Shown here: positions 7,009-37,924 of the stretch, piece after piece
Layout of the letters: each line of letters begins with the position of its first letter
How positions within the stretch are numbered: the stretch's first letter is position 1
NCBI GenBank assembly: GCA_031553935.1
Contig: JAVBKS010000034.1
Coordinates: forward strand, 5,034-69,033
DNA from: Syntrophomonadaceae bacterium
GTDB lineage: Bacteria; Bacillota; Syntrophomonadia; Syntrophomonadales; Syntrophomonadaceae
Reading direction: 5' to 3'
Length of the DNA stretch: 64,000 nucleotides
Notes under the pieces: model-generated
What the model saw: the letters and a program-made list of their open reading frames with translations, nothing else
Told to the model about the DNA's origin: nothing
The model's database searches: none
Translations under genes and position numbers: made by a program

Positions 7009-7014
7009 AATCAT

Positions 7015-7964: not shown

Positions 7965-8039
7965 ACTCGATCTCCCCATCTATTATGGCCATAGGTAAAA
8001 TGACATTACTGTTTCCAGGCTTCAAACCATTAACACCAG

Positions 8040-8645: not shown

Positions 8646-8814
8646 GCTAATACTTGTATACCCTCTCCGATTGTATTTCTGCTTGAACTACTTTCCCAAG
8701 CTCATTCATCCAATTGTTGCTGTTATTAATGTGGTCAACTTTATGTCTCTCACCGAGCGTCAACAAGTTGTGTTGTTGTCGCCATCTTCGTTAATTGAGC
8801 GAACATTGTCAATA

Positions 8815-9585: not shown

Positions 9586-9799
9586 TTCGCTATCTCCTTC
9601 ATCAAGTAGTCGCAAACCATATTTATAAATATCATATTCTCTCTTTTCTTCCTTTTAATCCAGGATTTTTGTCTACATAGGCTTGAGCAACAAGTACCAA
9701 AGTGACACATCTATTGGCAACATGTTGTAATTTTTCACTGGATAGGAAGTCGAGAAAAACGCCCAGCGACTGACATCTATTATCATGTTCTTTCTGGAG

Positions 9800-9878
9800 G
9801 TTTCAAATTTTTGGATATAGGATTATCATTGCACGATAAAACACTTTTATGTTTACGGGATACCTGTATTCCCATTCT
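9800..9878. repeat. Second copy of the ~78-bp repeat module, here non-coding
   Basis: CAAATTTTTGGATATAGGATTATCATTGCAC ... CACTTTTATGTTTACGGGATACCTGTATTCCCATTC aligns to 7015..7090. Confidence 0.7.
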
Positions 9879-9938
9879 AAGTTTCATACGCAGAAAAATA
9901 CCTCATGCAGAGAATCTTCACTTGCTAGAGTTCGTAAG

Positions 9939-10264
9939 TTACCATAGCTTGCCTTGAATGAATTCATATTCTGTTTTTAGCTCATATGCTCTTCGTTTAT
10001 ATCTTTCATATTCAAATTCTGCTGCATCAATCCCCCCCAAAGTCCCCCCTTCATATTCAGCAATAATGAGCTGCATATCTAAATTTGCATCTTCAAATGC
10101 AAATTCTTCCCATTTCATTTGGGACTTGATAAGGCCTATTTTTCCTTCTTCCATTTGATTAGCGGGCTAATTCTTTTCAAGGTATAATTCTGAGAGAGGT
10201 ATAAAAACCCGATCACGAACAAAAATATTATGCTTATTATCACTATGATGGTTTTCTTGTTCAT
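9939..10264 (-). pseudogene. Frameshifted gene for a small membrane-anchored protein (42-aa TM-anchor ORF plus 71-aa ORF in the next frame)
   Basis: The ATG at 10264 has an AGGAG RBS and encodes MNKKTIIVIISIIFLFVIGFLYLSQNYTLKRISPLIKWKKEK-stop (stop at 10136..10138). The 71-aa track ORF starts at 10154 in a different frame, and that frame is closed by a stop only 4 codons upstream of its ATG. Confidence 0.45.
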
Positions 10265-10404
10265 TCTATTCTTCTCCTACTCAAAAAAATCATCTATAGA
10301 ATATCTAGCTAAGTCTCGCATGTAAGTAGTTGGCTCGGTTCAATATTCATTTGGCACAACCAGACGTGTCAATGGGACGAAGATGGCGGAGGAATGACGC
10401 CCAT

Positions 10405-11016
10405 TTATGGTCGATAATCGATTATTGCATACAAGTAATCAGTCCCATCTATTTGGACAAATACAGCTACTAACCCGTAAATAAATAACGCAGTATTATC
10501 TTGAATGTTATCGACGTCTGCACAAACAAGAATAAATCCATTCTTTCTTTTAATTATCGTAGGTTTATTATCTATAGAAACCCCTTGTCCAAGGATTTGA
10601 GCAATTTCTTCCGCATAAGCTGAAACTGAATCAATATTCATTGATATATATCCATCCAATTCGGTTGCATATATTTCTTTTTCACAGATCTCAAGGTTGT
10701 TAAGTGTTAGTGTCAAATCGATCTCTGCCTCTCCAAATACAGGAAAACGCAAATTTTCTGGAATATTTTCCTTTTCTAACTCTATTGCATAATTCTTACC
10801 CCTGACTCCGAAGCTCGAGCTGAAATATCTCATAATGTTTAATTCATCTTTCACCAAAGCCCGAAATGACTTTGCATCTCTATCTTCAATCGATTTCAAA
10901 AGAATAATACTCTTCTTTTCAGACTCCGAATGGTTTCCAATTACATAGATGGTAAAGCACGATATAGTAAATAAACCTATAAACAGAATAATAATAGCAA
11001 TCCATCTTCTTTTCAC
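10405..11016 (-). CDS. Hypothetical N-terminally membrane-anchored protein
   Basis: 203-aa ORF with a GTG start, an AGAGGTG RBS, and the anchor RRWIAIIILFIGLFTISCFTIYVIG. Confidence 0.55.
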   Translation of the reverse strand: MKRRWIAIIILFIGLFTISCFTIYVIGNHSESEKKSIILLKSIEDRDAKSFRALVKDELNIMRYFSSSFGVRGKNYAIELEKENIPENLRFPVFGEAEIDLTLTLNNLEICEKEIYATELDGYISMNIDSVSAYAEEIAQILGQGVSIDNKPTIIKRKNGFILVCADVDNIQDNTALFIYGLVAVFVQIDGTDYLYAIIDYRP

Positions 11017-15700: not shown

Positions 15701-18700
15701 TTTCTTAGCTATGGCATCCTTTAATAATATGTCGCGGTAACTCTCTTGCTTAGTTTCATAGCCGTCGGTAGTATTAATAGTGATTTTGGCATCGGGGTCA
15801 GTTACCCCGGCATCCGCTAATATATCCTGCAGATAAGCACCCTTGACATAATCAGTTTTCTTCTCTCCGGCTTGAGTATAAGAATAATTAGCAGTGGCTT
15901 TGCCTTTATCATTAGGCAGTTGCATGATTCCACCGGCACCGCCAATCCTATAATTCTTGACTCCTGCACTTAAACCGAAAATGCTGAAGTCATTAGTATC
16001 AACCGGTATCACAACTTCCGAATCTCCTACTACGATTTTCTCAAGCCATTTTACGCACCAGCCGGTATTATCATGGACAACTAGGCGCAATGGCCCGAAT
16101 GCATTGCCGTAGTTAGAATCGTAACCGGGGGATTGTTCGTTCTCGACCAAGGGCAGGCCCTGAGTGGCATTGAGACCCTGACCATAAGCAATTATGATGG
16201 GCTTCCCATTAACTCCATTCTTGAGTTGGGCGCCGTCAAATTGGGCTGAAAAACCACCCGAATACGCGGTAACAACCGCAGTATCCAAACCATCTTTAAA
16301 ACCTATCCCCTGCAGGTATTTATATAGATCTATACCTTGCATAAAGAATTCGCCGCCCATTTTGTAGGTGTCGGCAACTTTAATATTGTCTAATGCTTCT
16401 AATGCAGCTACTGTAACCTTCTGCGGGGTTGCAATTTTATTGCCGTTTATCTCCAGCTCGTGACTGGCATAGGGCGCGAAGTTTCCAGACTTGTGGGTCC
16501 AGTCATTAATGGCACCGGCTATAAGCTCGATCTCGGTTACTGATGTAATGCACTGGCTTGCAGTGCCATTATTAATTATCAGCCGCAGTGGACCGCCGCT
16601 ATTATTGTATCCGGCGTCAAAGCCCGGTGATTGCTGTTCCGGCACCAATGGCTTCCCATCAAGAATTCCGCCGCTGCCAGCAATACCATAAGCCAAGATG
16701 ATTTTTTTGTTGCTGTCTGTCAAGTCGGCAATACTTAATTCGATACTATCTTGGCCATTTTTAACTATGATAGCGTTCAGCAAGGCACTGCTGCCTATCG
16801 AGCTGTCGTTTAGCAAGCGGAATAGTTCCAAGCCTCTATAAGTAACCGCTTTGTCTCCAATGGTATACTCTCTCGTGGATAAATACTTTTGCTTCTTTTC
16901 TAAGTCGCTGATTTTAATATCACCAGGTTTAGCCAAAGCCCCTGAGAACTTAACTTCCATATCGCCATAACCAGAATAGGTTTCACCGGTATGGGCATAA
17001 GCATCAGCTTCCATATTAACTACTATCTTGGTTAGGTTCTCGACTATGGTTTTGTTGTCATTGATGGTATCTACAATTCCGCCATTCTTTTCTTGTTCAG
17101 TCTGGCCACGAACGAATAGCAAAGGCCCGCCGGTATTCTTAATAACTTTTCCGGTCACAGTATCGCTATCTACATATCCCGTACCTTTTCCGTTTACTAA
17201 GGGATAGCCATTTTTGGCAAAGGCAATCATCATGCCAAGTTTATCCGTGCCGTTAATACTGTTGAAACCCTCAGCTCCAAGTTGATTCAATTGATAAGAT
17301 GCCTTCAGGGTGTCACCGCCGTATAGATCAACACTTCCCAGACTTCCAGGTAAACCTATATATTCGGTCAGTAAATAATTCAGGTTAACTCCTTCGAATA
17401 GATCCTGTATTTGATCGCCATTACCTGCTTTCTTGTAGTAATAGTAACCCTTTTCCTGGCGTCCTTCCGTATCCCTAATCTTTTTGGTTATTCCTGTTCC
17501 ATAGAGGATGTTTTCTAATTGCGATAGGGTTAGCTCATGACTTTCTTGGGTGCCATTTATTTCTATAGTTAAGGCTGGGTTGTCTTTCATTGCAGCATAA
17601 TCGGGATTCTGGGCATGGGTTGAGTAACGAATTTCGTCGCCCACATATATTTCTTGGGCCCGCTGCAGCTGATTAGAACCGTTATTGTAGAAATAGGCAT
17701 AGTTATCTGGAGCATTACTGTCAATGCGATTCATATTATCGGCTTTGCCAAAAATAACCCTAACCGGTCCGCCGTCATTGCCCAGTCCGCTGCGAAAGCC
17801 CTCTAGAGTGCTGCTGCGCACATAAGGATAACCGTTTACACCATATGCCAGTAAAACCGGATAACCTTTTTTAACCGGATAGTTATTAGAGTCCTTGCTC
17901 CAATTGCCTTCACGGTTGTCGGGCTGATAAGCTGCAGTTGCCAGCTGTTCTTTTGTAGGTCTGGCGGTTCCGATATCTAAGGGTGACTTCTCATAAAACA
18001 TGAATAAATCTGGATTAGCTAGCTGTTGCAATGAGAATTTCGCTGTGGTCAGATAATTATCCCAAGCCGTAAATGATACCAGATTAGTATTATCATTTTT
18101 ATATTGTTCAGCATCCAGACCTAATTTCTGGGTAAGCAATTCCCAGAGCTTAATGCCTTCGTATTCATTTACATACCAATAAGTAGTGTTGGAAAGACCA
18201 TATTCATCTCGGTATCCCAAACCATCTGCTTTCGGTCTCTTATTATCGTCGTATTCGACCATGGCTTCGAGTTCAGCTATGGTATAGTTAACCTCTCTTC
18301 CCAGTAGGGCTCCGGTAAAAGTTAATAAGTATTCGGTATTGGTCTTATTGCTATAGGCCGGATCAAGTGCCTGAGAATGCTTGTAACCAGGTGTGCCCCC
18401 ACTGGGTTCAACATAAATATAGGCTACACTGAGGAATTTTTTCGACTTACTTATATTCTGAAACTCGTTTAAATCATAGACCAATTTCAAACAGCCGTCA
18501 TCATTGCCGAGTTCGGGCTTAGTTCCGAGTGCTCCATCATAAACGAATGGGGCTACACTAGTACCATCCAAGGTTCCGGTACCATAGGCTAAAATCAGCG
18601 GTTTCTTGGCAGTTATTACATCATTATATGGAATTCGGGCTACCTCCTGGCGCCAGCGGTTCTTGAAAACTAAAACTACATCTTCGTCTACTTTGGCAAC

Positions 18701-20464
18701 TGTTGCTTTTACATGGCCTTCGATTATGTCTTTGATTATTATTCCTTCATATAATAATGAAGTTTCATTATCACGAAAATCATTGTAGGCGCCGCGATGA
18801 ATATAAGCATCAGCACTGTTTTCTAATTCCCGCACTGACATCGGTGTAGTGGCCTTGACTCCAGGGCCTTCTACCGTCAAGGTTGCACCGGTAATAGCGT
18901 CGATATTATAGGGAGCACTGCCGCTTAAGCCGCCGTTATTAATGTGCTTATAGGGACTGCCGGCATAAGATTTTTCATCAATTGTGATATTATCAACCAT
19001 TTTAGCCGGGGTCATGTTATCGACATATAGGGTTAAGTAGCCTTTGATTGTTTTATCATTTTTAGCTGTTGAATAAATCGCTTCCCAATTGCCTTGATTC
19101 TTGGTTTCATAGGCCAGAATGGCATGCTTATCAACAAGATCTTTTTTAGTCATACCATCTGCAGCTACTTTAAAGCCATCTGCAGCAGCAAACTTAATTA
19201 CATCATTGTCTTTGTATTTTTCCAAAAGCTTAGCTAGGGATACTCCCCTCACTTCGGCCACGGTTTCATCAGAAGCACCCGTCTTTACAAAACGATGTTC
19301 CTGCTCAGTACGTTCCATCATCAATAATTGCGCCCGGGTGTAATTGTCGTCTTTGGTCTTGAGGGCTATTGTTGCAATTGGTTGCTGGTCCCCGATCAAT
19401 ACTCTGAACAAGGGAGTGGGGCCATTAAAGAGGGGATTATTGTAGTCGTTTAGCGCTAATTGTCCGGCCATGATGCGCAGTTTCGAGTCATCATAAGCGC
19501 TGACTTCAGTTGGTGTTTCGATTGTTCCTCTTGCTCCGCCTTCAGCCCAAGCTACAATAGTCGGAACCTCAATTGCGCCTGCGTCGCTATTATCTCCTAT
19601 CTGGGGATAATAGTAGCGGTCAGCTGTAAAAACCTGTGAAATATTTGCCTCATTTGTTACACCAACTGTAGTTTTTGCTGGATCAAATACTATTTTATAA
19701 CCATCACCAGCGAATACAGTCACTTTATTATTGGCTAAATCAGCATCAGTTTTTGCTAATAAAGCTGCAAGTCTTATGCCTTCACCTCGGAAAACACTCT
19801 TTGTATTAGCTGTATTTATGGCCGAGTATAAGTATTGGTTATTAGCAGCTGCATTCTCGTCTTGTTCAGCAATTGCCAAAAGTTCAGCCAATGAATAAGC
19901 TTTCTCTTGGTTAATATTATTTTCCGTATATTCACCATTTCCGATAATTGCATTTCCGCTTATTAATAATACCGGCTGTTTGGCAGCTCTCATCTGCTCA
20001 TAGTCCAAGGACTGGGAGCCAAGAAGCATATTAAGCAATGATTCATCTTCCAGTTTCATTTCCCAAACATTTGACTGATCTGAATCTTCTGCTTCTGTTT
20101 CTGCTTCTATGGTATCGGAATCAGAGGGCAATTGTTCTTGTCCAGTGGCAGCCTGATCTGCTTCATCCGGTCCTCGGATTTGATCAGCATCGCCTTCATC
20201 TGGTGCTTCTGCCAATGGCACCTCAATCACTTCATCTAGTTCTGAATCTGTTAAATCACCGGCCTCATTCGCATTTTGCCCCTCTAATTCAACAGCATCA
20301 TTATCAGGAGTTTCATTAGTGTCAATGATTTTTACTTCTGTATCTGTTGCCCAAGCCTGTCCTAGAGAAAGGCCTGAAGGTGCAAGTATTTGCATAATGA
20401 AAGCCAAAATGATTATATAACTGATCAAAGATCTGCTATTTTTTTGGTTTCTGGTTTTTAGCAT
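12779..20464 (-). CDS. Giant (~2561 aa) S-layer-homology-anchored protein: ~9 tandem sulfite-oxidase-fold (oxidoreductase molybdopterin-binding-like) modules, a Reg_prop-type beta-propeller, and 3 C-terminal SLH domains
   Basis: The track ORF starts with TTG at 20524. The ATG at 20464 has an AGGGGG RBS and gives the signal peptide MLKTRNQKNSRSLISYIIILAFIMQILAPSGLSLGQAWA. Repeated modules end in ILAYG...GGPLRLIINNG, IIAYGQG...FGPLRLVVHDNTGWCVKWLEKIVV and LLAYGVNG...GGPVRVIFGK, as in the YedY/MsrP and sulfite oxidase Moco domain. Propeller blades include IRSIKVDSQNGIWIGTYG, VSALAVDKDGGVWF and VQAIEIDSKGDVWFGSFGG. SLH repeats begin at FGDSVDHWASKNVEFL.... Confidence 0.85.
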   Translation of the reverse strand: MLKTRNQKNSRSLISYIIILAFIMQILAPSGLSLGQAWATDTEVKIIDTNETPDNDAVELEGQNANEAGDLTDSELDEVIEVPLAEAPDEGDADQIRGPDEADQAATGQEQLPSDSDTIEAETEAEDSDQSNVWEMKLEDESLLNMLLGSQSLDYEQMRAAKQPVLLISGNAIIGNGEYTENNINQEKAYSLAELLAIAEQDENAAANNQYLYSAINTANTKSVFRGEGIRLAALLAKTDADLANNKVTVFAGDGYKIVFDPAKTTVGVTNEANISQVFTADRYYYPQIGDNSDAGAIEVPTIVAWAEGGARGTIETPTEVSAYDDSKLRIMAGQLALNDYNNPLFNGPTPLFRVLIGDQQPIATIALKTKDDNYTRAQLLMMERTEQEHRFVKTGASDETVAEVRGVSLAKLLEKYKDNDVIKFAAADGFKVAADGMTKKDLVDKHAILAYETKNQGNWEAIYSTAKNDKTIKGYLTLYVDNMTPAKMVDNITIDEKSYAGSPYKHINNGGLSGSAPYNIDAITGATLTVEGPGVKATTPMSVRELENSADAYIHRGAYNDFRDNETSLLYEGIIIKDIIEGHVKATVAKVDEDVVLVFKNRWRQEVARIPYNDVITAKKPLILAYGTGTLDGTSVAPFVYDGALGTKPELGNDDGCLKLVYDLNEFQNISKSKKFLSVAYIYVEPSGGTPGYKHSQALDPAYSNKTNTEYLLTFTGALLGREVNYTIAELEAMVEYDDNKRPKADGLGYRDEYGLSNTTYWYVNEYEGIKLWELLTQKLGLDAEQYKNDNTNLVSFTAWDNYLTTAKFSLQQLANPDLFMFYEKSPLDIGTARPTKEQLATAAYQPDNREGNWSKDSNNYPVKKGYPVLLAYGVNGYPYVRSSTLEGFRSGLGNDGGPVRVIFGKADNMNRIDSNAPDNYAYFYNNGSNQLQRAQEIYVGDEIRYSTHAQNPDYAAMKDNPALTIEINGTQESHELTLSQLENILYGTGITKKIRDTEGRQEKGYYYYKKAGNGDQIQDLFEGVNLNYLLTEYIGLPGSLGSVDLYGGDTLKASYQLNQLGAEGFNSINGTDKLGMMIAFAKNGYPLVNGKGTGYVDSDTVTGKVIKNTGGPLLFVRGQTEQEKNGGIVDTINDNKTIVENLTKIVVNMEADAYAHTGETYSGYGDMEVKFSGALAKPGDIKISDLEKKQKYLSTREYTIGDKAVTYRGLELFRLLNDSSIGSSALLNAIIVKNGQDSIELSIADLTDSNKKIILAYGIAGSGGILDGKPLVPEQQSPGFDAGYNNSGGPLRLIINNGTASQCITSVTEIELIAGAINDWTHKSGNFAPYASHELEINGNKIATPQKVTVAALEALDNIKVADTYKMGGEFFMQGIDLYKYLQGIGFKDGLDTAVVTAYSGGFSAQFDGAQLKNGVNGKPIIIAYGQGLNATQGLPLVENEQSPGYDSNYGNAFGPLRLVVHDNTGWCVKWLEKIVVGDSEVVIPVDTNDFSIFGLSAGVKNYRIGGAGGIMQLPNDKGKATANYSYTQAGEKKTDYVKGAYLQDILADAGVTDPDAKITINTTDGYETKQESYRDILLKDAIAKKYFLAYDAGPSLEELAKIEDADKNGVKATVRIYRNFNDGENWQNRLTSIKGISVTMPIKYTFNSFVSSINLPYAKIRSIKVDSQNGIWIGTYGTGMAYKSASDTSFTFYNTEGTPKLENDFVSALAVDKDGGVWFSQNASYSEPQNNRGIGYLKNGSITWYRAADNPATIPSDYVQAIEIDSKGDVWFGSFGGITKYDPTANTWRTWTKADGLPAASVNTITFEKSGGLWIGCYPDGTGTENDLFKGGYAHMNSAGVIDFAKTYEGQYDSTLQSSLLADAWVRGIAVDSKGGAWIVRSGSYPTLANVGGRVDHVSGSGSNRTVVSYTGKELLGENLAGNHEIRMVAVDKADGLWFGTSGSGVIYCKKLNEIENVYSSGNQAWPDIVGMDNIYYLGFVGNTLYVGSDAGLAYNTFNIGGGTGGGENDAILTVTRNGSNKDYSLNDLKNLGSTTASYPWLNNYGSKGTESFTGIKLSTVLNNSGLLSGGKSVKISSADGYYRVYNIDSSGEPTMNFINGGPMLLAWKQSGNTLSGLQLVVAQQSTDDVNRDDWVSDVSDIEISTSTGNNGEGTPGPGSSGSSNTKQEEEKTPLALESQVKVENGVASMAITVEDMEKALKVLADDTGSKNIIVNCSTGETINKSVVELPYEVLKRLVDQGQAGLSIRTNHGDLTVVTEVLAGLLAAMKSGNTATIAVANIDNGQEESNPGHPAIDISFAVDGTELTSLQSFLKFAIPYTPSEEEKEDKILAYHVDANGNRVAIPMSGYNADDKAVIGFINHLSVFAVGYNDQTFGDSVDHWASKNVEFLAARAVVSGKAENAFDPNANVTRAEFIKMLAATIEGLRLEFNPETSFEDIDPAAWYGKYVLWAAEQKIVNGFEDGLFKPDTEITREQMALITYKFITELNLGLSQDEEAEAFADQDQISAWALNAVNEMHALEILNGDMDGNFKPQDHASRAEASTIIKKILEIFMQR

Positions 20465-20534
20465 ATATGTAGTACCCCCTATTATCTTTTCTTTCCTTTT
20501 CATCACATCAATAATTCGTGGCAATTAATATCCA

Positions 20535-21677
20535 TTAATCTACCATTATCAATGAATCGACCAAACCAGGTGTTGTCGTTATACCCAGGTCATTACCAAT
20601 AATCACTCCTTCCATCATAAAATCGGTTTTCGCCTTAGAGAATTCCCCTATAAACTGCATGCCCTTTTCCGGACCCATAACCATTAACGCTTTGGTCATC
20701 ATATCAGCCTCAGTGGAGCTTTTTGCTATCACGGTAGCCGCAACACATTTGGTTGTTGGCTTTCCTGTCTGGGGATCAAATATATGATGATATCTCTGGC
20801 CATCAATCTCGAAATACCTCTCGTAATCACCAGAGGTCACCAGTGAAGCATCAACAACCGGCAAAACTGCAATTACTGCATTTTCGTCCTTACGCGGATG
20901 TCTAATTCCTATCTGCCAAGGCTTCCCATCCGGCTTGGAACCCACTGCATATACATTTCCTCCCGCATTAATTATGGCATGTTTTATTCCCTGTTCTTTC
21001 AGTTTTTCTACAGCTTTGTCAGTAGCATAGCCCTTAGCAATTCCGCCCAAATCCATTATCGTACCCCTGTTAACCATGATTTCATCTCCGGCAAGCGTAA
21101 TACCCTTGTAATTGCCGGCTTGCAGAGCTATCGCCAGTTCATCAGCTGTTGGTATATGTTTTTTACCCTTAATGTCCCATAAGTCACTTACCCGTCCCAA
21201 ACCGATGTCAAAAGTGCCACGACTAAGATCACCAAATTCTAAGGCCCTACTAACCATGGCAATTAAATCCGGTGATACTTTCACCCAAGAACCGGGCGAA
21301 TTATTGATTCTGTATACGTCGCTGCCGCTGGGATCCTGCAAGTTTCGGGCTGCAAATCTATCGGCTAGAATATCAATGCGGTTGTATTCAGCTTCAACCG
21401 CTTGCCTTGATTTTTCTGCCTGTTCGGGCGATTCGGCATAAATTATCAAAGTGATTACAGTATCAAGCGCAAAGAAATTGGTTCTATACTCAGACAGATC
21501 GGCAGCACTTACGTTAGGATTAAGTGTATTGCGTTCACTAATTGAATGGCCGCCATTTTGGCAAGCATTTACGAAAGGAAGAAATAATATAAGAGCAATG
21601 ATGATCTTGGCAGATGATTTGGTTTTACGTAACTTTTCTGAACTTGATCCTAAAAAATACAAAACACATTTCCCCAT
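20535..21677 (-). CDS. apbE: FAD:protein FMN transferase (ApbE family), predicted lipoprotein
   Basis: 380 aa with ApbE hallmarks GGIAKGYATDKA, INAGGNVYAVG and TSGDYERYFEIDGQRYHHIFDPQTGKP. The lipoprotein signal is KIIIALILFLPFVNAC. The stop codon lies 10 nt from the giant ORF and about 70 nt from its likely ATG. Confidence 0.9.
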   Translation of the reverse strand: MGKCVLYFLGSSSEKLRKTKSSAKIIIALILFLPFVNACQNGGHSISERNTLNPNVSAADLSEYRTNFFALDTVITLIIYAESPEQAEKSRQAVEAEYNRIDILADRFAARNLQDPSGSDVYRINNSPGSWVKVSPDLIAMVSRALEFGDLSRGTFDIGLGRVSDLWDIKGKKHIPTADELAIALQAGNYKGITLAGDEIMVNRGTIMDLGGIAKGYATDKAVEKLKEQGIKHAIINAGGNVYAVGSKPDGKPWQIGIRHPRKDENAVIAVLPVVDASLVTSGDYERYFEIDGQRYHHIFDPQTGKPTTKCVAATVIAKSSTEADMMTKALMVMGPEKGMQFIGEFSKAKTDFMMEGVIIGNDLGITTTPGLVDSLIMVD

Positions 21678-21780: not shown

Positions 21781-21796
21781 TTCTTCTAGGCTTCAC

Positions 21797-21893
21797 TTGC
21801 TTTCCTTTCCAAACGGGAGGCTTATTCGTTTCCAAACAAACCCATCGGTTAGCAACCATGGCAGTGCTTTAGGTATACTAACTCGGATGCAGA
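21797..21893 (-). ncRNA. Candidate molybdenum-cofactor (Moco) riboswitch aptamer
   Basis: The minus strand reads CAUCCGAGUUAGUAUACCUAAAGCACUGCCAUGGUUGCUAACCGAUGGGUUUGUUUGGAAACGAAUAAGCCUCCCGUUUGGAAAGGAAAG. The 3-prime core GCCUCCCGU..UGGAAAGG matches the E. coli moaA Moco element as I recall it (GCCUCCCGUAUCUGGAAAGG). A hairpin immediately precedes CCUCCC (UUGUUU-GGAAAC-GAAUAA). A CCU..GCAC..CCAUGG/AUGGG segment parallels CCUCUGCACCUGGG/CCAGGG. Matched from memory, not by a covariance model. Confidence 0.65.
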
Positions 21894-22117
21894 TAAAATT
21901 ATTAAATTATTCAATATTTTCTTTTTCTAAGTGAAAGTAAATGTCAATATTAACATAATAATATCATAATTCCATCTATTTCGACAATAGTTGAGCAAAT
22001 TTTCTGATAATTTAAAACATTTCGTGATTTCTCGATTATTACGAGCTGAGTTATAAAAATGTTTTCTAAAGCTCGAAAAAAGGCTAAACTTAATAAAACG
22101 CATTAAAGGTGATTCAT

Positions 22118-23763: not shown

Positions 23764-24552
23764 CTATTTTGTCACCCCTCTATTAGAGGAGCTGCTCGGT
23801 GCTTTGATTAGTCCTTCAACCTTACTTCTGCTAAGGCCGGTTAAACGAACCAATTGCCTTACTGATATATTGCCTCCAAGTAGCTTTTTAAGATATCTAG
23901 TCTGCTCTCTTTCGCCAAGCGTTTGGAACTCTTGGAGGTCATTTAGCTTACATTCCTTTTTGATTATTCTTGCTGCAACATGATCGCCGATTCTTTTTTT
24001 CTCACTGAATTCCAAAAACAACTGCTTATTATCAGATCTATCATTTACCATTTCAATGATAGTATCCAGGGGAATAATTTCGAATAGTTGCTCATGATCA
24101 ATTATTGCAGATGTATTCTTTAGCAGACGAAAGCTGCTCCATTGAAAGTCCTCTGCTATTTTGCATAGCTTTGCTTGTACCGGTTTTAAATAAATATATC
24201 GCAGCACTTTTGTAAAATAAGTTACATCTTCTACCGGAATGCTCTTGTAGCGGTCTTGAAATAGATGCCCGCTGCGTTCATATTTTTGGTTGTACCAATA
24301 TACGAAACGCGCTCCTAGTCTTCGAAAGGCTTGAGCAAGAGTTTCTTCTCCCTCTTTAATAAGAAGATGCACCTCATTACCTAATAGTACATAAGCATAG
24401 AGCTCAAATTTGCTTAATTTCTTACTTTCTTCCAAACAATACAGGAATCTTTCTTTATCTTCTTCATCTTTGAATATCATCTGTTGGTTGGCAGCTCGAA
24501 GTATTACATGGTAGATTCCAGTCTCACTTTTATGGCGTGCTGCTCTTGGCAT
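23764..24552 (-). mobile_element. REP-associated tyrosine (Y1, IS200-like) transposase-like protein with C-terminal HTH
   Basis: 262 aa. Supporting segments are GIYHVILRAANQQMIFKDEEDKERFL, EVHLLIKE, HLFQDRYKSIPVED and RYIYLKPVQAKLC..DFQWSSF (RAYT/COG1943 pattern), followed by the HTH SVRQLVRLTGLSRSKV. Confidence 0.75.
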
Positions 24553-33770: not shown

Positions 33771-33806
33771 ATGCAAGGAAGTAAAGTTAATCTTCGCTCC
33801 CTTGCA
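33771..33806 (-). terminator. Stem-loop downstream of the GC-rich gene (putative terminator)
   Basis: ATGCAAGG (33771..33778) pairs with CCTTGCAT (33799..33806). On the minus strand it is followed by UUGUUUAAUUU. Confidence 0.4.
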
Positions 33807-33948
33807 TCCAAACTTCTATTAAACCCTCATGCCTACCCCTTCGTATTAGGCTATTGTAGCCGTACCCTGTGGGTAGAATAGAATTGTCGACTTTTCGAAG
33901 TCAATGCCTTCGATAGTAACCTAAACCATCTATTCGTGCGGTGTTGCC

Positions 33949-36900
33949 TTAAATTTCTGGATTTTCGATCAGCGTTGGCCTGCCTAATGTGCCGATGGTT
34001 GCAGTGTTCCACACACTTGTCGTGTTCCAGCCTAAGGTATTAATGACGGCAAGCAAGCTGGACGGGTCCATACTCTGACCGTCCAACCCGTTTGGATCGC
34101 TAATCGGTGTAACCGGCACGCCTCCGGAGAGCAGTGTCATTGCACTGTTGGCGTAGTTTTGCTCGAGCGTCGCGCCGTTAACCAGTTGTCCGCAAACCCT
34201 GTGCACCACGCCGCCTGCGTTGGTGGCGACCGCTGAGGTCCCTAGAGCGATGCTGCTTTGCAAGCTGGCTGCGCCCGGCGACTTGGACTCCAAAGAGCCA
34301 ACAAGACCTGCGACGCCGGTGTCACCAGTGGCAGAGCCCGATGCATAGCAGCGGCTGACCGTCGCACCGAGCCCATGGCCCAACAGTGCACCATACTGGG
34401 AGCCGACGCCGCTGCTGTTCCCGGTCGCGTAGCTGTCCAGGATGATCGTAGGATTGGCGCACAATCCCACCATCGAGCCAACCTCAAATTGCCCATTGGA
34501 AACCACATTGCCCGTCGCAAAGCATTGCTCGATCAGCCCATAGGCGCAATTGCCGCTAAAACCTCCAGCACCGTTACCGCTTCCCGTTCCGCCGGTGCTA
34601 GTCACGTTGCCGTGTGCCTGGCACTGGAAAAACTGCAGCGAAGGGTTTTGCGGATTTGCCGGTGCGGGTGCGTCGGTGTTGCCGTTAAATCCGCCAACTC
34701 GAATGGCTGCTTGAGCATTGCCGCTGGCCCGGCAGCGGATATACCTGGCGCCTGAAGTACGACCAACGAATCCGCCGACTTCTTGAGTAACGGCAGTCAC
34801 GTTGGCGGTCGCGGAGCAATCGGTCACGAACATGATCGGTGTTGTGGGTATTGGCGTGATGTTGAGAACCCCTATATGTCCGGCGAAACCACCGCTTACT
34901 CCTGCGGTCGATGGTCCAATTGCCGCTATGGTAGATGCACTTGAGTGACAGTTTGAGATGTTTGTTGTGCCGCCGCCGGTCATGACCTGCATTGCACCGA
35001 TTACACCACCCATGGACGCAGTTCGCCCAGTGATATCCACTCCGCAATTGATATTGGCATAGCTGCTGCCGCTGGTGCGCACTTCGATGGTACCAAATGC
35101 GCCGCCAAGCCGGTTGTTTCCGTAAATTGCGCCGCTTTCCACCTCACCGCCCAACATGGTGAGCGGGGCGGTCAGCGTTGTAAAGCCAATGAGACCCCCT
35201 TGATGCGCAGCAGTCGCAAGCGGATTGGGTTCATTTATTTGTATTTGCCCAACTATAAGATTCGTGAGGTTAGATGGGGCAGTGCACGTAAACATGCCGA
35301 TAATACCGCCACAGTTTGCGGCAAAGAAAAGAAAGGTGCCTGTAGCCACGCTGATATTGGACATTTGACTCACCCCTGCACTGACCAGCCCGATCACCCC
35401 GCCCTGGTTTTGGTTGCCGGTGACCTCCGATTCTGTGACGACCACGTCGCTGACCGTGGCCGAAGCCCCCGCTTGGTTCAGCAGACCGATCAATCCGCCC
35501 GCGTTGACGGATAACGGGGTGATCTCTGCGATAACCAGCTGCGGCGCGATAATGCGCTCAACGATAATTTCGCCTTCCAGTACTCCTGCCATGCCGCCTA
35601 TATATCCAATATTGCTGCCGGTTCCGGAGCGCCCGCCGGATGCTCGCCCTGGATTCAGCATGATGTCTCTGATGGTTCCACCTTGCATATAACCAACCAG
35701 CGTACCGATTTTACCGGTCAATGCGGTGTCGGCAAAACCGGTGAACATTGCTTCCGAAAATGCGTTAACGAGGGTAAAGCGCTCCAGCGCAACTCCGCGA
35801 ACCTGGCCAAAAAGCCCGCGTACCAGCACAGGGTTTTGCGCTGTGGCGGCGGCGTTGATGGTCAGATTGCTGACAACGCAACCGCTTGCCGGGGTCTGGA
35901 CAACGCCGGTGAAAACATGCTCGCCGGATAGAGACGGTACAATCAGACCTGCATCCACATTGCCGATAGGCATCCAACCATTGCCACCCCAAGCAGTTGC
36001 GTAGTTGGCCAAATCGAACTCGCTGTCCAATCTATATGTCAGCGATAGGCTGTCGGGCATGCCATGCACGCCGCCTGTCTGATCGTAAAGCGCCTGCATG
36101 CCTTCGATATTATCAAGAATGCGAGCACTTTCCGTCACACCCGCCCGGTTGCCTGGATTCCCTTGGGACATATCAGGATAAAAGGCCATTTCTGCGGGGG
36201 TGCACATGCGCACAAAGAAGGGATCGCCGATGATGCCATTCCCCGAGGCGAACGGCATGCCCATGGCCGATTCAAACAGCGTCAAAACGCCTGTTGATCG
36301 TCCCTCGTTGGTTATGCCCACCACATAGACATCATAGTTGAAGCCATCCATAACTCCAGTCTCCAGCGGCAACGGCGTTATGTTCTCTTTGCCGGTCAGG
36401 GAGAAGGAAAATGTTTGCGCGGAGGCACTCAGTGAGCGCACGAATTGGCCACGCACGGCGTTACCGGTAATCAGTGAGCCGGGATCATTGTAGCCGACAA
36501 TCTCCTCCGCAGTGGGCACTGGCTGCCCGGGGGTCAGTAACAGATAATATATTGAAAGTGCCGTGACTGGTGAGGCTGACCCGTTCATCTCCACGTCTAC
36601 CGTCCTGAATACTGCACCGCGCACCATTGAGATTAGATTAACGTTCAGGAAGCTGGTATCCACCGTGAAGGTTGAGAACGTGCGCGAGGTGTCCATAGGG
36701 TTGCAGAACGTGCCCAACTGAGTAGCAATGACTGTGTATGTGCCGTCTGGCAGGTCATAAGGCGATTGCACAGCCCACTCGCCATTCTCAGACAGCGTCG
36801 CGGTTTCGCAAAATACAGTCGCTCCAAGACTGTTCTGAACACATACCATCACCTGGCTGTTTGGAACGCCGCGCCCAGCAATGGATGGCCTCGAGGATGC

Positions 36901-37602
36901 GATGACCTCATTCAACTCCGGCACATCGATAGGCGGAGGCGGGCAGGCGGGGTAGACTACATCGAAGCAGGTTTCATCCTGCGGCCTATCGAAATTCACA
37001 CTGCCCGGGCATCGCAGCACTGCCAGCACACAATGGCGCCCCTGCGTCCAAGGCGGATTGGGTTCGTAGCTCCAGTTGCCATTAGCGTCGATGGGCACCC
37101 GTCCGACGAAAATGCCGTCTCGATAAAGCTCCGCTTCGCAGCCAGGTTCTCCGGTTCCAACGATTGGATCTCCCGGATCGGCTCTTCCACCGTTCTCAGG
37201 GCTGGTGATTCGGATTTCCGTGCCTTTCGTAACGTAAAAACACGACATATCTTCCGGTGGATTCCCGGTATAGTTGCCCGGGCAATGCAACACTGCACGA
37301 ACGCAATGACGACCGCCAGTCCATGGTGTAGCGGGACGATACATCCAATGTCCATAGGCATCGATGCTCACAGCCCCGGCAAACCTTCCATCAATGTATA
37401 TATCAACGCGACAAAATGGTGTCCCTTTCCCCGTGACTGGATCAGTAGTGTTGACATTGTCGCCGTTGCAGGGGCACGTGATACAAATACTGCGGCAATA
37501 ATTACGACTGCATGGCTGGCAAAGTGTAGGCACAGGCAAACAGAAGCGGGGTCCCCCGTGAGATATTGGCGCAGAACGAAAACTATTAAAGCACTTTTTC
37601 AT
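33949..37602 (-). CDS. GC-rich, Cys-rich protein with tandem Ig-like domains and a long GLUG-motif beta-helix-like repeat region
   Basis: The track ORF is 33949..37608. An AGGAGG RBS is best spaced for the second ATG at 37602. The N-terminus has 9 Cys in about 45 aa (CLPVPTLCQPCSRNYCRSICITCPC) and no hydrophobic signal peptide. There are two ~85-aa repeats with 4 Cys each, and a Big-like domain (GRGVPNSQVMVCV...DGTYTVIATQ). More than 12 GG(L/V/I/F)(I/V/A/F)G motifs are present (GGLIGLL, GGVIGLV, GGIIGMF, GGFVGRT, GGFSGNCAYGLIEQCFATGNV). Confidence 0.75.
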   Translation of the reverse strand: MKKCFNSFRSAPISHGGPRFCLPVPTLCQPCSRNYCRSICITCPCNGDNVNTTDPVTGKGTPFCRVDIYIDGRFAGAVSIDAYGHWMYRPATPWTGGRHCVRAVLHCPGNYTGNPPEDMSCFYVTKGTEIRITSPENGGRADPGDPIVGTGEPGCEAELYRDGIFVGRVPIDANGNWSYEPNPPWTQGRHCVLAVLRCPGSVNFDRPQDETCFDVVYPACPPPPIDVPELNEVIASSRPSIAGRGVPNSQVMVCVQNSLGATVFCETATLSENGEWAVQSPYDLPDGTYTVIATQLGTFCNPMDTSRTFSTFTVDTSFLNVNLISMVRGAVFRTVDVEMNGSASPVTALSIYYLLLTPGQPVPTAEEIVGYNDPGSLITGNAVRGQFVRSLSASAQTFSFSLTGKENITPLPLETGVMDGFNYDVYVVGITNEGRSTGVLTLFESAMGMPFASGNGIIGDPFFVRMCTPAEMAFYPDMSQGNPGNRAGVTESARILDNIEGMQALYDQTGGVHGMPDSLSLTYRLDSEFDLANYATAWGGNGWMPIGNVDAGLIVPSLSGEHVFTGVVQTPASGCVVSNLTINAAATAQNPVLVRGLFGQVRGVALERFTLVNAFSEAMFTGFADTALTGKIGTLVGYMQGGTIRDIMLNPGRASGGRSGTGSNIGYIGGMAGVLEGEIIVERIIAPQLVIAEITPLSVNAGGLIGLLNQAGASATVSDVVVTESEVTGNQNQGGVIGLVSAGVSQMSNISVATGTFLFFAANCGGIIGMFTCTAPSNLTNLIVGQIQINEPNPLATAAHQGGLIGFTTLTAPLTMLGGEVESGAIYGNNRLGGAFGTIEVRTSGSSYANINCGVDITGRTASMGGVIGAMQVMTGGGTTNISNCHSSASTIAAIGPSTAGVSGGFAGHIGVLNITPIPTTPIMFVTDCSATANVTAVTQEVGGFVGRTSGARYIRCRASGNAQAAIRVGGFNGNTDAPAPANPQNPSLQFFQCQAHGNVTSTGGTGSGNGAGGFSGNCAYGLIEQCFATGNVVSNGQFEVGSMVGLCANPTIILDSYATGNSSGVGSQYGALLGHGLGATVSRCYASGSATGDTGVAGLVGSLESKSPGAASLQSSIALGTSAVATNAGGVVHRVCGQLVNGATLEQNYANSAMTLLSGGVPVTPISDPNGLDGQSMDPSSLLAVINTLGWNTTSVWNTATIGTLGRPTLIENPEI

Positions 37603-37898
37603 AACCATCCTCCTAAACGATTTTCTCGAAAGAGATAGAAAAGCTCCATTATAATAAGATATGTATTCTGTTAAACATATGCTAAGCCATGTGAAATTGC
37701 AGAAAATGGTATTCTCATTATAATTAATGAAAACATTTGCTAAAAACTAAAGATATAGCGGATATACCTGAGGTAAGTTTCTGTTGGGCAATAACTCGAA
37801 TAAAGAAGTGTAATTTTCGCTGGTCTTCGACGACAGCTCATGGCTCCTTTGCAGTTATTAGAAAACTAGCATGGTCAGAGCGCATTCACAATAGAAAG

Positions 37899-37924
37899 GA
37901 TCAGCATGATTGCTCATGCTGATC
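37899..37924 (-). terminator. 10-bp perfect stem-loop after flgJ-like gene
   Basis: GATCAGCATG-ATTGCT-CATGCTGATC lies about 38 nt after the stop at 37963. On the minus strand it is followed by CUUUCUAUU. Confidence 0.5.

What the first reader, a model, noticed from the sequence alone, without database searches (positions are those of the whole stretch)
33840..37625. Single-gene GC-rich island encoding a Cys-rich, signal-peptide-less GLUG/Ig-like repeat protein
- **Composition.** Hand counts of sample lines give roughly 60-65 percent G+C inside 33949-37602, against roughly 20-35 percent in the immediately flanking intergenic DNA and about 40 percent in neighbouring genes.
- **Codon usage.** Third codon positions switch to G/C.
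- **Boundaries.** The compositional boundary coincides with one ORF. There is no integrase, tRNA or direct repeat that I can see.
- **Protein features.**
  - An N-terminus with 9 Cys in about 45 residues and no hydrophobic signal.
  - Two 4-Cys Ig-like repeats.
  - A Big-like domain.
  - More than 12 GLUG-type GGxxG repeats typical of beta-helical adhesins or proteases.
- **Interpretation.** This suggests recent acquisition from a high-GC donor. Export may be non-classical, or the protein may go to the spore surface. The latter is speculation, based on Cys-rich exosporium or coat proteins in other spore formers.
Basis: partly seen in the sequence, partly recalled or inferred. Interest (0 to 1): 0.65.

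Follow-up and report, generated by a model that had tools for sequence, protein, structure and literature searches.

The report
Imported gene for spore-surface fibre
One GC-rich gene was imported from GC-rich Clostridia into an AT-rich, spore-forming anaerobe; it encodes a cysteine-rich fibre protein with no export signal that most likely decorates the spore surface, because relatives are fused to endospore-appendage subunit domains.

Summary
**Observation: confirmed.**
- One minus-strand ORF (33949..37602, 1217 aa) has GC 0.56 and GC3 0.60. The other 39 ORFs have GC3 of about 0.37.
- Amino-acid demand explains only about half of the GC excess.

**Horizontal transfer: well supported.**
- All close relatives sit in GC-rich Eubacteriales/Oscillospiraceae MAGs, in unrelated contexts.
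- The window copy nests inside that clade.
- The host is Syntrophomonadaceae-like, and its closest relative lacks the gene at the flgJ junction.
- The window lineage shows 123 G/C→A/T against 3 A/T→G/C third-position changes.
- dN/dS is about 0.15, so the gene is functional.

**Protein layout.** Disordered Cys-rich leader, three Ig-like domains, a fourth β-sandwich, an almost invariant module, a GLUG-type β-helix and a C-terminal cap. It has no signal peptide, sortase motif or protease motif.

**Spore-surface reading: indirect evidence.**
- None of the 41 best module-bearing relatives has a signal peptide.
- Seven relatives carry a σK-type promoter (AC-N16/17-CATAnnAT) next to the RBS.
- One relative has a collagen stalk.
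- Two start with an A-ENA endospore-appendage domain, and one of those lies in an A-ENA cluster.
- The host has yqfC/yqfD.

**Weak point.** The window copy keeps only a partial promoter match.

The parts
33949..37602 (-). Complete coding sequence, 1217 aa plus stop. The mechanical ORF extends to an ATG at 37608.
   Evidence: RBS position; the NCBI call P0001 is 1217 aa. GC 0.56, GC3 0.60. dN/dS 0.15-0.16, and 181 of 185 family-invariant residues are kept.
33929..37641 (-). Extent of the foreign segment, defined by nucleotide homology to relatives' loci. It is the ORF plus about 20 nt 3' and about 35 nt of 5' leader including the RBS.
   Evidence: blastn to L003 at 82% over 3288 nt. No homology beyond these limits.
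37495..37602 (-). N-terminal leader, aa 1-36. It is Cys-rich (5 Cys, CxxC), non-hydrophobic and predicted disordered. Proposed disulfide docking peptide.
   Evidence: max hydropathy 1.09, no signal; pLDDT about 32 for residues 1-34.
36955..37494 (-). Two tandem Ig-like repeats of about 90 aa (aa 37-125 and 126-216). Repeat 1 has 7 Cys and repeat 2 has 4; four Cys positions in each are conserved across the family.
   Evidence: AF2 beta-sandwiches with pLDDT 85-95. Foldseek top hits are SiiE BIg domains and adhesin extender repeats.
36649..36954 (-). Big_13 Ig-like domain (aa 217-318).
   Evidence: Pfam PF19077, E = 3.8e-12. Present in 14 of 14 members.
36259..36648 (-). Fourth beta-sandwich (aa 319-448), DUF4982-like, with the motif YYLLL-PG-P-PTA.
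   Evidence: AF2 strands. PF16355 hits 8 of 14 members. About 130-column Foldseek matches to GH2 accessory Ig-like domains.
35905..36258 (-). Family-signature module (aa 449-566). It is the beta-helix N-cap (G-x-G-x-x-DPF ... W-x-PIGN) interrupted by an almost invariant insert, GNPGNRAGVTE-ARILDNIEGMQ-LYDQ.
   Evidence: Invariant columns. It defines 45 proteins. No Pfam or PDB sequence match. The AF2 model is low-confidence here apart from a helix at aa 491-508.
34183..35904 (-). GLUG-type right-handed beta-helix (aa 567-1140) with 13-14 GG-x-x-G coils.
   Evidence: coil list. (pLDDT mostly 85-96). (IgA1-protease N-domains 7uvk, 3n6z, 7uvl, 6xjb). (6xjb, E = 0.028). GLUG hits in 6 of 14 members.
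33952..34182 (-). Conserved C-terminal cap (aa 1141-1217): DPNGLDGQ ... LGW-T--VW ... GRPTL--NPE.
   Evidence: Invariant columns. Two short helices in the model.
37609..37614 (-). Ribosome-binding site AGGAGG, 6 nt before the ATG at 37602. It lies inside the segment shared with L003.
37648..37681 (-). Candidate promoter region. CATATGTT (37674-37681) is homologous to the GCATA element of relatives. CATATCTTA lies at 37655-37663 and TATAAT at 37648-37653. The -35 position reads GC, not AC.
   Evidence: Only a partial match to the sigma-K pattern; function not shown.
37899..37924 (-). Terminator-like hairpin that ends the upstream flgG / rod-binding-protein unit and insulates the gene from flagellar transcription.
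   Evidence: 11-bp stem followed by a T-rich tail.
33771..33807 (-). Hairpin with two 16-nt arms followed by a T-rich tail. Probable terminator of the gene.
   Evidence: inverted repeat I5. Sequence.

Best explanation
**Origin.** The gene is a self-contained, single-gene horizontal import. It came from a GC-rich member of the Eubacteriales/Oscillospiraceae into an AT-rich, Syntrophomonadaceae-like endospore former. It is kept under purifying selection and is slowly drifting towards the host's AT-rich composition.

**Proposed function.** The product is most likely a spore-surface fibre or adhesin.
- It is made without a signal peptide in the mother-cell cytoplasm late in sporulation.
- It attaches to a cysteine-rich spore layer or appendage by disulfide bonds through its disordered Cys-rich N-terminal leader.
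- A stalk of disulfide-stapled Ig-like domains holds it away from the surface.
- It ends in a GLUG-type beta-helix 'head' that binds a still unknown ligand.

**Shown.**
- The compositional anomaly.
- The foreign phylogenetic position.
- Absence from the syntenic site of the closest host relative.
- The directional substitution bias.
- The domain architecture.
- The family-wide lack of a signal peptide.
- The sigma-K-like motif upstream of relatives.
- The A-ENA and collagen fusions in relatives.

**Inferred.**
- Mother-cell expression.
- Disulfide docking.
- Spore-surface location of the window's copy.
- An adhesive role.
For: **Horizontal transfer.**
- GC3 is 0.597 against 0.374 in the host. 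With host codons the expected GC3 is 0.393. Fourfold-site GC has z = 3.7.
- The 16 relatives sit in hosts with flank GC 0.50-0.62, share no synteny, and have no recurrent neighbour gene.
- The NJ tree nests the window copy among them.
- The host's FlgG is Syntrophomonadaceae-like.
- The closest contig, L020, is syntenic through amidohydrolase, decarboxylase, FlgG and the rod-binding gene. It then continues with tgt, not this gene.
- Third-position changes on the window branch are 123 S→W against 3 W→S. That is 22% of S sites, against 5-10% in sister lineages.
- A family member in an AT-rich host has GC3 of 0.22, so the family is not intrinsically GC-rich.
- dN/dS is 0.15-0.16 and 181 of 185 invariant residues are kept.

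**Spore-surface role.**
- None of the 41 best module-bearing proteins has a signal peptide, and 20 of all 45 have at least 4 Cys in the first 60 residues.
- The strict motif AC-N16/17-CATAnnAT occurs 18 times in 599 kb of locus DNA. Seven of those lie within 70 nt upstream of family start codons.
- That motif matches the published sigma-K pattern (-35 AC, -10 CATATAAT). Published exosporium bclA genes are sigma-K controlled (PMC3789822).
- P0171 has a Cys-rich leader followed by a collagen triple-helix region (33.1 bits against a 27.2 cut-off).
- The N-termini of P0173 and P0182 match PDB 9ihh, 'spore-silk A-ENA fibers', at E = 1.9e-11 and 9.1e-12.
- P0173 lies 22 nt downstream of an 89-aa A_ENA subunit gene and next to a third A_ENA protein.
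- Published ENA subunits and tip fibrillae dock through N-terminal peptides, in S- and L-ENA by Cys disulfides. They are made late in the mother cell (PMC11362473; bioRxiv 2020.08.21.260141; PMC12357932; PMC12921279).
- The host carries yqfC-like and yqfD sporulation genes.
Against: - The window copy and its nearest relative L003 lack the strict sigma-K motif. They keep only a CATAnnnT element 72-79 nt upstream, with GC rather than AC at -35. The window copy also has a TATAAT that could serve sigma-A.
- The window protein has no A_ENA domain, no collagen region and no CC doublet. Its link to appendages therefore rests on homology of the C-terminal 900 residues only.
- No Ena, CsxA or ExsY-type partner gene was seen in the 64-kb window, and no partner gene is conserved next to relatives.
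- Most relatives have a somewhat higher GC3 than the ORFs around them. Part of the excess could be a family trait, or the family could be mobile in general.
- The nearest host relative is only 79% identical in FlgG, so the 'empty site' is at genus or family distance.
- No expression or localisation data exist.
Confidence: 0.55

Rival explanations
1. The protein is a vegetative cell-surface or secreted GLUG adhesin. It leaves the cell by a non-classical route, for example an unrecognised N-terminal signal, the neighbouring flagellar export apparatus, or cell lysis.
For: - GLUG beta-helices and Big_13 stalks are typical of secreted adhesins.
- The four most distant module-bearing proteins do have signal peptides.
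- The gene sits next to flgG and the rod-binding gene, and has a TATAAT that could serve sigma-A.
Against: - None of the 41 best family members has a signal peptide, and none has an LPXTG or SLH anchor.
- The flagellar neighbourhood is unique to the window and is separated by a terminator.
- The relatives' sigma-K-like promoters and A-ENA or collagen fusions point to the spore.
Confidence: 0.17
2. The gene is a phage-derived tail fibre or tailspike, or a remnant of a phage-like particle. Such proteins also lack signal peptides and combine Ig-like domains with beta-helices.
For: - Generic beta-helix matches to viral proteins, including tail fibres and a 'putative IgA1 protease' of a siphovirus.
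- Faint Gp53-like and Ig_J hits in distant members.
- The gene moves between genomes as a single cassette.
Against: - No PHROG family matched.
- tblastn found no hit in 50,697 phage records.
- No phage gene lies next to it in the window or in 16 related loci.
- TM-scores to viral models are low, 0.14-0.29.
Confidence: 0.07
3. The gene was not transferred. Its GC richness is intrinsic (Gly/Ala/Pro-rich protein plus selection for G/C-ending codons), or the contig is an assembly or binning chimera.
For: - 48% of the GC excess follows from amino-acid composition.
- In most relatives the gene's GC3 also exceeds that of neighbouring ORFs.
- The window is probably from a metagenome-assembled genome.
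Against: - Codon-level GC is far outside the host range.
- A family member in an AT-rich host has GC3 of 0.22.
- The window copy is nested in a GC-rich clade and shows an amelioration signature specific to its branch.
- There are two clean junctions in intergenic DNA, with host-like sequence on both sides. A chimera would give one junction.
Confidence: 0.05
4. The protein is an intracellular structural or scaffold protein, such as a cytoplasmic beta-helical polymer, unrelated to the cell or spore surface.
For: No export signal is present, and lysine content is very low at 0.6%.
Against: - Conserved paired cysteines in Ig-like domains and adhesin-type stalk folds imply an oxidising, extracytoplasmic final location.
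- Relatives carry appendage and collagen fusions.
Confidence: 0.04

Closest known systems
Tip fibrillae of endospore appendages: L-BclA on L-ENA and F-BclA on F-ENA (Bacillus cereus group; PMC11362473, PMC12357932)
   Same: - No signal peptide.
- Made late in the mother cell.
- A short N-terminal docking peptide: a CC motif in L-BclA, a mimic of the subunit hook in F-BclA.
- A long stalk and a distal globular head that mediates contacts.
- One family member (P0171) even has a Cys-rich leader followed by a collagen stalk.
   Different: - The stalk here is made of Ig-like domains, not collagen.
- The head is a beta-helix of roughly 570-650 residues (aa 567-1140 plus C-cap), not a C1q/BclA-C domain.
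- There is no sequence homology to BclA proteins.
- No ena-type partner gene is adjacent.
- The window's leader has CxxC but no CC.
A-ENA endospore appendage ('spore-silk', PDB 9ihh; Pfam PF26595 A_ENA) and the GLUG proteins in A-ENA gene clusters
   Same: P0173 and P0182 share the window protein's fourth beta-sandwich, signature module, beta-helix and C-cap (33-36% identity). Each begins with a full A_ENA subunit domain. P0173 lies in a three-gene A_ENA cluster.
   Different: The window protein has no A_ENA domain. In its place are a Cys-rich leader and three Ig-like domains. No paper describing 9ihh was found in the searchable library, so what is already known about these fusions could not be checked.
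N-terminal GLUG beta-helix domain of streptococcal and Gemella IgA1 proteases (ZmpA family; PDB 6xjb, 7uvl, 7uvk) and BACOVA_03286 (3n6z)
   Same: They share the fold and the GG-x-x-G coil repeat. These are the best structural and sequence matches in the PDB.
   Different: There is no M26 metalloprotease domain, no HExxH, no signal peptide and no LPXTG. The similarity is weak (E = 0.005-0.03). The window protein is therefore not a protease of that family.
Ig-like extender stalks of giant adhesins (SiiE BIg domains 2yn5; adhesin extender repeats 6xi3; Big_13/Ca_tandemer)
   Same: Tandem beta-sandwich stalk domains (Foldseek E of about 1e-12). Big_13 is matched by Pfam.
   Different: Those adhesins are T1SS or Sec substrates with tens of repeats and Ca2+ sites. 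Here there are only three or four domains, each with four conserved cysteines.
Cys-rich exosporium and coat morphogenetic proteins (ExsY/CotY, CsxA, CdeC/CdeM). This comparison rests on my own knowledge plus PMC12357932 for CsxA.
   Same: They are cysteine-rich, have no signal peptide, are made in the mother cell and are cross-linked by disulfides.
   Different: No sequence similarity was found. Those proteins form the lattice itself, whereas this protein looks like a passenger that would attach to such a lattice.

Membership tests
GLUG-motif beta-helix proteins (Pfam PF07581) | Match to the GLUG HMM above the Pfam threshold | tested here: not met
   No GLUG hit in the window protein even at E <= 1. 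6 of 14 family members do hit, best E = 3e-9, as do P0172, P0173 and P0182.
GLUG-motif beta-helix proteins (Pfam PF07581) | Tandem GG-x-x-G coils forming a right-handed beta-helix | tested here: met
   13-14 coils with a period of 27-43 aa. Confident AF2 beta-helix. Best PDB folds are IgA1-protease GLUG domains.
IgA1 protease / ZmpA (M26 metallopeptidase) | M26 catalytic domain with HExxH | tested here: not met
   No HExxH. No peptidase family in Pfam or NCBIfam.
IgA1 protease / ZmpA (M26 metallopeptidase) | Signal peptide and LPXTG wall anchor | tested here: not met
Big_13 bacterial Ig-like domain (PF19077) | HMM match above threshold | tested here: met
   47 bits against a cut-off of 27, residues 233-318. 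Present in 14 of 14 members.
A-ENA endospore appendage proteins (PF26595 / PDB 9ihh) | A_ENA helical subunit domain | tested here: not met
   No hit to 9ihh for the window protein or its 14-member family profile. tblastn of an A_ENA subunit against the window found nothing. A local A_ENA HMM hits only P0173 and P0182.
A-ENA endospore appendage proteins (PF26595 / PDB 9ihh) | Location in an A_ENA gene cluster | tested here: not met
   Window neighbours are a LuxR-type regulator and flagellar genes. This feature is met for relative P0173.
BclA-type collagen-like exosporium / tip-fibrillum proteins | Collagen GXY stalk | tested here: not met
   No run of six or more GXX triplets (the only run of four or more is GDTGVAGLVGSL inside the beta-helix) and no Pfam Collagen hit in the window protein. 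Present in relative P0171.
BclA-type collagen-like exosporium / tip-fibrillum proteins | C-terminal BclA-C / C1q-like head | tested here: not met
   No such Pfam hit. The head is a beta-helix.
S/L-ENA (Ena-core, DUF3992) docking system | N-terminal connector with a Cys-Cys motif that disulfide-bonds to Ena subunits | tested here: inconclusive
   The window leader has 5 Cys with two CxxC but no CC. Several relatives (L004, L006, L008) have CC doublets. No partner was identified.
Sigma-K (late mother-cell) regulon | Promoter with -35 AC, 16-17 nt spacer and -10 CATAnnnT(A) close to the start | tested here: inconclusive
   The window has CATATGTT and CATATCTTA elements but GC at -35. The strict motif is met in 7 relatives and the -10 core GCATAnnAT in 9. 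Transcription was not measured.
Classical genomic island | Integrase, tRNA target or flanking direct repeats | tested here: not met
   No tRNA. No significant flanking repeats. No integrase in adjacent ORFs. Foreign DNA is limited to the ORF plus 20-35 nt on each side.

The most novel reading that the evidence does not exclude
The gene belongs to an undescribed, rare family of modular spore-surface or endospore-appendage tip adhesins. About 40 module-bearing proteins were recovered from searches of billions of proteins (31 clusters at E <= 1e-30 among 1.84 billion representatives).

The family shares a constant 'head': a fourth beta-sandwich, an invariant NRAGVTE-ARILDNIEGM module, a GLUG beta-helix and a C-cap. 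This head is coupled to the spore through interchangeable N-terminal docking modules:
- a Cys-rich leader with an Ig stalk;
- a Cys-rich leader with collagen;
- an A-ENA subunit domain;
- DUF11 repeats.

The family travels between distantly related spore-forming Clostridia as a single-gene cassette. If so, spore surface specificity itself can be exchanged horizontally.
Probability: 0.4. Interest if true: 0.7.

Novelty: new variant of a known kind. Interest (0 to 1): 0.55.

Why it matters
- **Open question.** Endospore appendages and their tip proteins were identified molecularly only in the last few years, almost entirely in the Bacillus cereus group. What they bind, and what anaerobic Clostridia use, is largely unknown.
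- **A candidate to test.** This family offers a concrete candidate for a non-collagen, beta-helix 'head' on clostridial spores. Its signature motif is sharply conserved and can be mutated. Its interchangeable docking modules can be tested by co-assembly.
- **Transfer of surface properties.** The window shows such a gene crossing from GC-rich Eubacteriales into a Syntrophomonadaceae-like syntroph and being maintained by selection. Spore adhesion or aggregation properties may therefore be horizontally transferable in anaerobic communities.
- **If the spore link is wrong.** The result is still a clean, quantitatively documented single-gene transfer with measurable amelioration.

Tried and rejected
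- **Exact look-up** of the window protein and of P0001 in the contig index found nothing. The window's own record could not be named. The listing of cluster members gave no accession or organism.
- **Literature searches** for 'EPI_MAG', 'NAEGEK', 'A-ENA spore silk' and 'spore-silk' found nothing useful. The source environment of the MAGs and the A-ENA paper remain unknown to me.
- **The third deep homology search**, with aa 321-620, returned only one fragment because of the word index.
- **PHROGs, phage tblastn and plasmid tblastn** gave no relative of the module or helix. The plasmid hits were generic Ig-like domains.
- **A sequence search of the PDB** with the whole protein gave only noise.
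- **A conserved neighbour gene** across 17 loci was sought and not found.
- **Flanking direct or inverted repeats** were all short chance-level matches.
- **A sigma-E promoter** (ATA at -35) was considered and rejected for the relatives because the -35 is AAAC, i.e. sigma-K type.
- **A flagellar-export role** was considered because of the flgJ/flgG neighbours. It was rejected because the neighbourhood is unique to the window and a terminator intervenes.
- **L010** turned out to be the mirror image of L003 and was dropped.

Full report
**1.

- **ORF.** A single ORF lies on the minus strand at 33949..37608. AGGAGG sits directly against the first ATG and 6 nt before the second. The real start is therefore almost certainly 37602, giving 1217 aa. 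The public gene call P0001 agrees.
- **GC step.** GC rises from 0.30-0.35 in the flanking intergenic DNA to 0.50-0.62 inside the gene, then falls again.
- **Per-gene values.** GC is 0.559 and GC1/2/3 are 0.557/0.524/0.597. The 39 other ORFs of at least 150 aa have GC3 between 0.24 and 0.50, with a pooled value of 0.374.
Encoding the same protein with the host's codon usage would give GC 0.484 and GC3 0.393. Amino-acid composition (13.7% Gly, with abundant Ala, Thr, Val and Pro) therefore explains 48% of the excess, and codon choice explains the rest. GC at fourfold sites is 0.608 against a host mean of 0.389 (sd 0.059, max 0.506).
- **No classical island features.** The window has no tRNA. No meaningful repeats flank the gene. 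No integrase lies next to it. An IS200-like transposase sits 9 kb away.

**2. It is a horizontal import**

- **Relatives are few and foreign.**
  - A search of 5.8 billion proteins found about 15 full-length relatives, none named.
  - A scan of one genome per species found 16 distinct loci. All are in one series of metagenome-assembled genomes labelled Eubacteriales or Oscillospiraceae.
  - Those hosts are GC-rich, with flanks at 0.50-0.62. The gene's GC3 there is 0.56-0.86.
  - The gene contexts are unrelated to each other and to the window. No neighbour gene recurs.
- **The host belongs to a different lineage.**
  - Its FlgG is about 70% identical to Syntrophomonas, Thermosyntropha and Syntrophocurvum proteins.
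  - The closest contig (FlgG 79%, L020) shares the order amidohydrolase, Orn/Lys/Arg decarboxylase, FlgG, rod-binding protein. It then continues with tRNA-guanine transglycosylase.
  - Synteny ends exactly where the GC-rich gene begins. Two further Syntrophomonadaceae-like contigs also lack the gene.
- **Phylogeny.** In a distance tree the window protein nests inside the clade of GC-rich hosts, beside L003, L004 and L005.
- **Directional substitutions.** I counted sites where four relatives agree and the window differs.
  - The window branch has 123 G/C→A/T and 3 A/T→G/C changes at third positions (83 against 3 for synonymous changes).
  - That is 22% of ancestral G/C sites, against 5-10% in the sister lineages. 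This is the expected signature of amelioration in an AT-rich genome.
- **The family is not intrinsically GC-rich.** A member living in an AT-rich host (L025, flanks 0.34) has GC3 of 0.22.
- **Extent of foreign DNA.** Nucleotide homology to the relatives covers 33929-37641: the ORF, 20 nt of 3' sequence and about 35 nt of leader including the RBS.
- **The gene is functional.** dN/dS to the nearest relatives is 0.15-0.16, and 181 of 185 family-invariant residues are retained.
- **'Recent' is relative.** dS to the nearest sampled relative is 0.67, so the actual donor has not been sampled.
- **An assembly chimera is unlikely.** There are two clean junctions with host-type DNA on both sides, and the substitution bias is specific to this branch.

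**3. Anatomy of the protein**

Coordinates for each part are in the parts list.

| Region (aa) | Feature | Evidence |
|---|---|---|
| 1-36 | Non-hydrophobic leader with 5 Cys, modelled as disordered | |
| 37-216 | Two Ig-like sandwiches of about 90 aa, each with four family-conserved Cys | |
| 217-318 | Big_13 Ig-like domain | |
| 319-448 | Fourth beta-sandwich, DUF4982-like | |
| 449-566 | Family-signature module | |
| 567-1140 | Beta-helix of 13-14 GG-x-x-G coils, modelled with high confidence | |
| 1141-1217 | Conserved C-terminal cap | |

- **The stalk.** The three N-terminal Ig-like domains together resemble the extender stalks of giant adhesins such as SiiE.
- **The signature module.**
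  - It looks like the usual N-cap of GLUG beta-helices (G-x-G-x-x-DPF ... W-x-PIGN).
  - The cap is interrupted by an almost invariant insert, GNPGNRAGVTE-ARILDNIEGMQ-LYDQ.
  - AlphaFold models this region poorly, apart from one helix.
- **The beta-helix.** Its best PDB fold matches are the N-terminal GLUG domains of IgA1 proteases and BACOVA_03286.
- **What is absent.** There is no HExxH, no LPXTG, no SLH domain and no transmembrane segment. Lysine makes up only 0.6% of residues.
- **GLUG caveat.** The Pfam GLUG model does not reach significance on this protein. It does on 6 of 14 family members.

**4. What the wider family says about function**

- **A rare family without signal peptides.**
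  - An exhaustive HMMER pass over 1.84 billion representatives found 31 clusters at E <= 1e-30.
  - About 1,900 weaker hits match only the generic C-terminal coils.
None of the 41 best has a signal peptide.
  - The four weakest, which are lysine-rich, do have one.
  - Twenty of the 45 have at least four Cys in the first 60 residues.
- **The N-terminal part varies in a telling way.**
  - P0171 has a Cys-rich leader followed by a collagen triple-helix region.
  - P0172 has DUF11 repeats.
  - P0173 and P0182 begin with an 85-residue helical domain. It matches almost the whole subunit of PDB 9ihh, 'Ex vivo spore-silk A-ENA fibers', at E = 1.9e-11 and 9.1e-12.
- **One relative sits in an appendage gene cluster.** P0173 carries the precomputed Pfam family PF26595 (A_ENA). 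It lies 22 nt downstream of an 89-aa A_ENA subunit gene and next to a 348-aa Cys-rich protein with a C-terminal A_ENA domain.
- **This matches the published logic of endospore appendages.**
  - Subunits and tip fibrillae have no signal peptide.
  - They are made late in the mother cell.
  - They dock through N-terminal peptides, by Cys-Cys disulfides in S- and L-ENA.
  - The tip protein mimics the subunit's own docking element.
  - Clostridial F-Anchor proteins even contain DUF11 domains.

**5. A conserved promoter**

- **The motif.**
  - In 11 of the 13 relatives with usable upstream DNA, otherwise unalignable sequence contains a GCATAnnAT-like element 27-38 nt before the start codon. Nine match exactly, and L008 (GCATAAGTT) and L011 (GAATATCAT) each differ by one base.
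  - In most of them AAAC lies 16-17 nt further upstream.
- **Statistics.** The strict pattern AC-N16/17-CATAnnAT occurs 18 times in 599 kb of locus DNA on both strands. Seven of the 18 lie within 70 nt upstream of this family's start codons, where about 0.02 would be expected.
- **Match to sigma-K.**
  - The pattern corresponds to the sigma-K promoter described for C. difficile and B. subtilis (-35 AC, -10 CATATAAT).
  - Sigma-E differs by having ATA at -35.
  - The exosporium bclA genes are in the sigma-K regulon.
- **The weak link.** The window copy and its nearest relative L003 have a different, longer leader. The window keeps CATATGTT at -79 and CATATCTTA at -61, but with GC at the -35 position. 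It also has a TATAAT at -51.
- **Host capability.** The host is, or was, an endospore former. The window carries yqfD (E = 3e-87) preceded by a yqfC-like ORF.

**6. Most likely mechanism, and rivals**

- **Best explanation (confidence 0.55 for the whole statement, about 0.9 for the transfer alone).**
  - The gene is a transferred single-gene cassette encoding a spore-surface fibre.
  - The protein is made in the mother cell.
  - Its Cys-rich leader fixes it by disulfides to a cysteine-rich spore layer or appendage.
  - The disulfide-stapled Ig stalk spaces it from the surface.
  - The beta-helix head binds an unknown ligand.
  - The collagen stalk of P0171 suggests that the head works as a trimer. 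This is inference only.
- **Rivals.**
  - A vegetative adhesin exported non-classically (0.17).
  - A phage tail-fibre relic (0.07). No PHROG, phage-genome or prophage-context support was found.
  - Intrinsic GC richness or an assembly chimera (0.05).
  - An intracellular scaffold (0.04).

**7. Comparison with known systems, and novelty**

- **What it works like.** It resembles ENA tip fibrillae and BclA-type spore fibres.
- **What it is not.** It is not a member of those families. It has no collagen region, no C1q head, no Ena-core and no A_ENA domain.
- **What it shares with IgA1 proteases.** Only the beta-helix fold; the catalytic domain is missing.
- **What appears undescribed.** The signature module has no Pfam, NCBIfam or PDB sequence match.
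- **Rating.** I rate it a new variant of a known kind. The transfer itself is an ordinary, though unusually well documented, event.
- **Limitation.** I could not find the paper behind PDB 9ihh. Part of the A-ENA/GLUG connection may therefore already be known.

Noticed in passing
window 21786-21899 (-), with 20535-21677 and 12779-20524: A Moco (molybdenum cofactor) riboswitch (RF01055, 65 bits) lies directly upstream of an ApbE gene. ApbE is followed by a 2581-aa SLH-anchored surface protein with a molybdopterin-oxidoreductase domain and Reg_prop repeats. That is an unusual cargo for a Moco riboswitch.
   Followed up: no
window 6014-11016 (-): A block of five ORFs (201-310 aa) has GC 0.31-0.35, well below the host mean. 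None has a Pfam hit. Their N-termini look like signal or lipoprotein peptides, and they are not paralogous to each other. This is a second compositional oddity, in the opposite direction.
   Followed up: partly
window about 1-37960 versus 37963-64000: The window splits in two.
- To the right of the rod-binding gene lies a conserved housekeeping core: methionine salvage, pyrimidine synthesis, era, ybeY, phoH, yqfD.
- To the left lies a variable block: the target gene, a LuxR-type membrane regulator, two giant SLH proteins, GH26 and an IS200-like transposase (23764-24552).
- Synteny with the closest relative L020 stops exactly at the boundary.
   Followed up: partly
window 62278-63471 and 63531-63821 (-): The sporulation signature genes yqfD (PF06898, E = 3e-87) and a 96-aa yqfC-like ORF indicate that the host is or was an endospore former.
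   Followed up: yes
L003+L013, L007+L014, L005+L015, L009+L016: Four donor-type MAGs each carry two paralogues of the family, one from each of two clades that are about 50% identical. The two lineages are therefore old and co-resident. The window holds only a clade-A copy.
   Followed up: partly
L023 6491-11891 (GCA_017861365.1; same arrangement in L024): A three-gene A-ENA cluster:
- a 348-aa Cys-rich protein with a C-terminal A_ENA domain, on the opposite strand;
- an 89-aa A_ENA subunit;
- 22 nt later, the 1296-aa family member P0173 with an N-terminal A_ENA domain.

The layout looks like anchor, fibre and tip.
   Followed up: partly
window protein aa 449-566 (35905-36258): The most conserved stretch of the family is the part AlphaFold models worst (pLDDT 40-60), apart from one helix. 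That would fit an oligomer interface or a ligand-induced fold.
   Followed up: no
L010 versus L003: the search for related loci returned the same place on contig JAVBMB010000009.1 twice, in mirrored coordinates, with identical statistics. I treated them as one locus.
   Followed up: yes
whole protein; family: Lysine is extremely rare: 0.6% in the window protein and 0.1-0.7% in close relatives. It is 3-8% in the distant, signal-peptide-bearing relatives. This could reflect GC bias, resistance to trypsin-like proteases, or avoidance of cross-linking.
   Followed up: no
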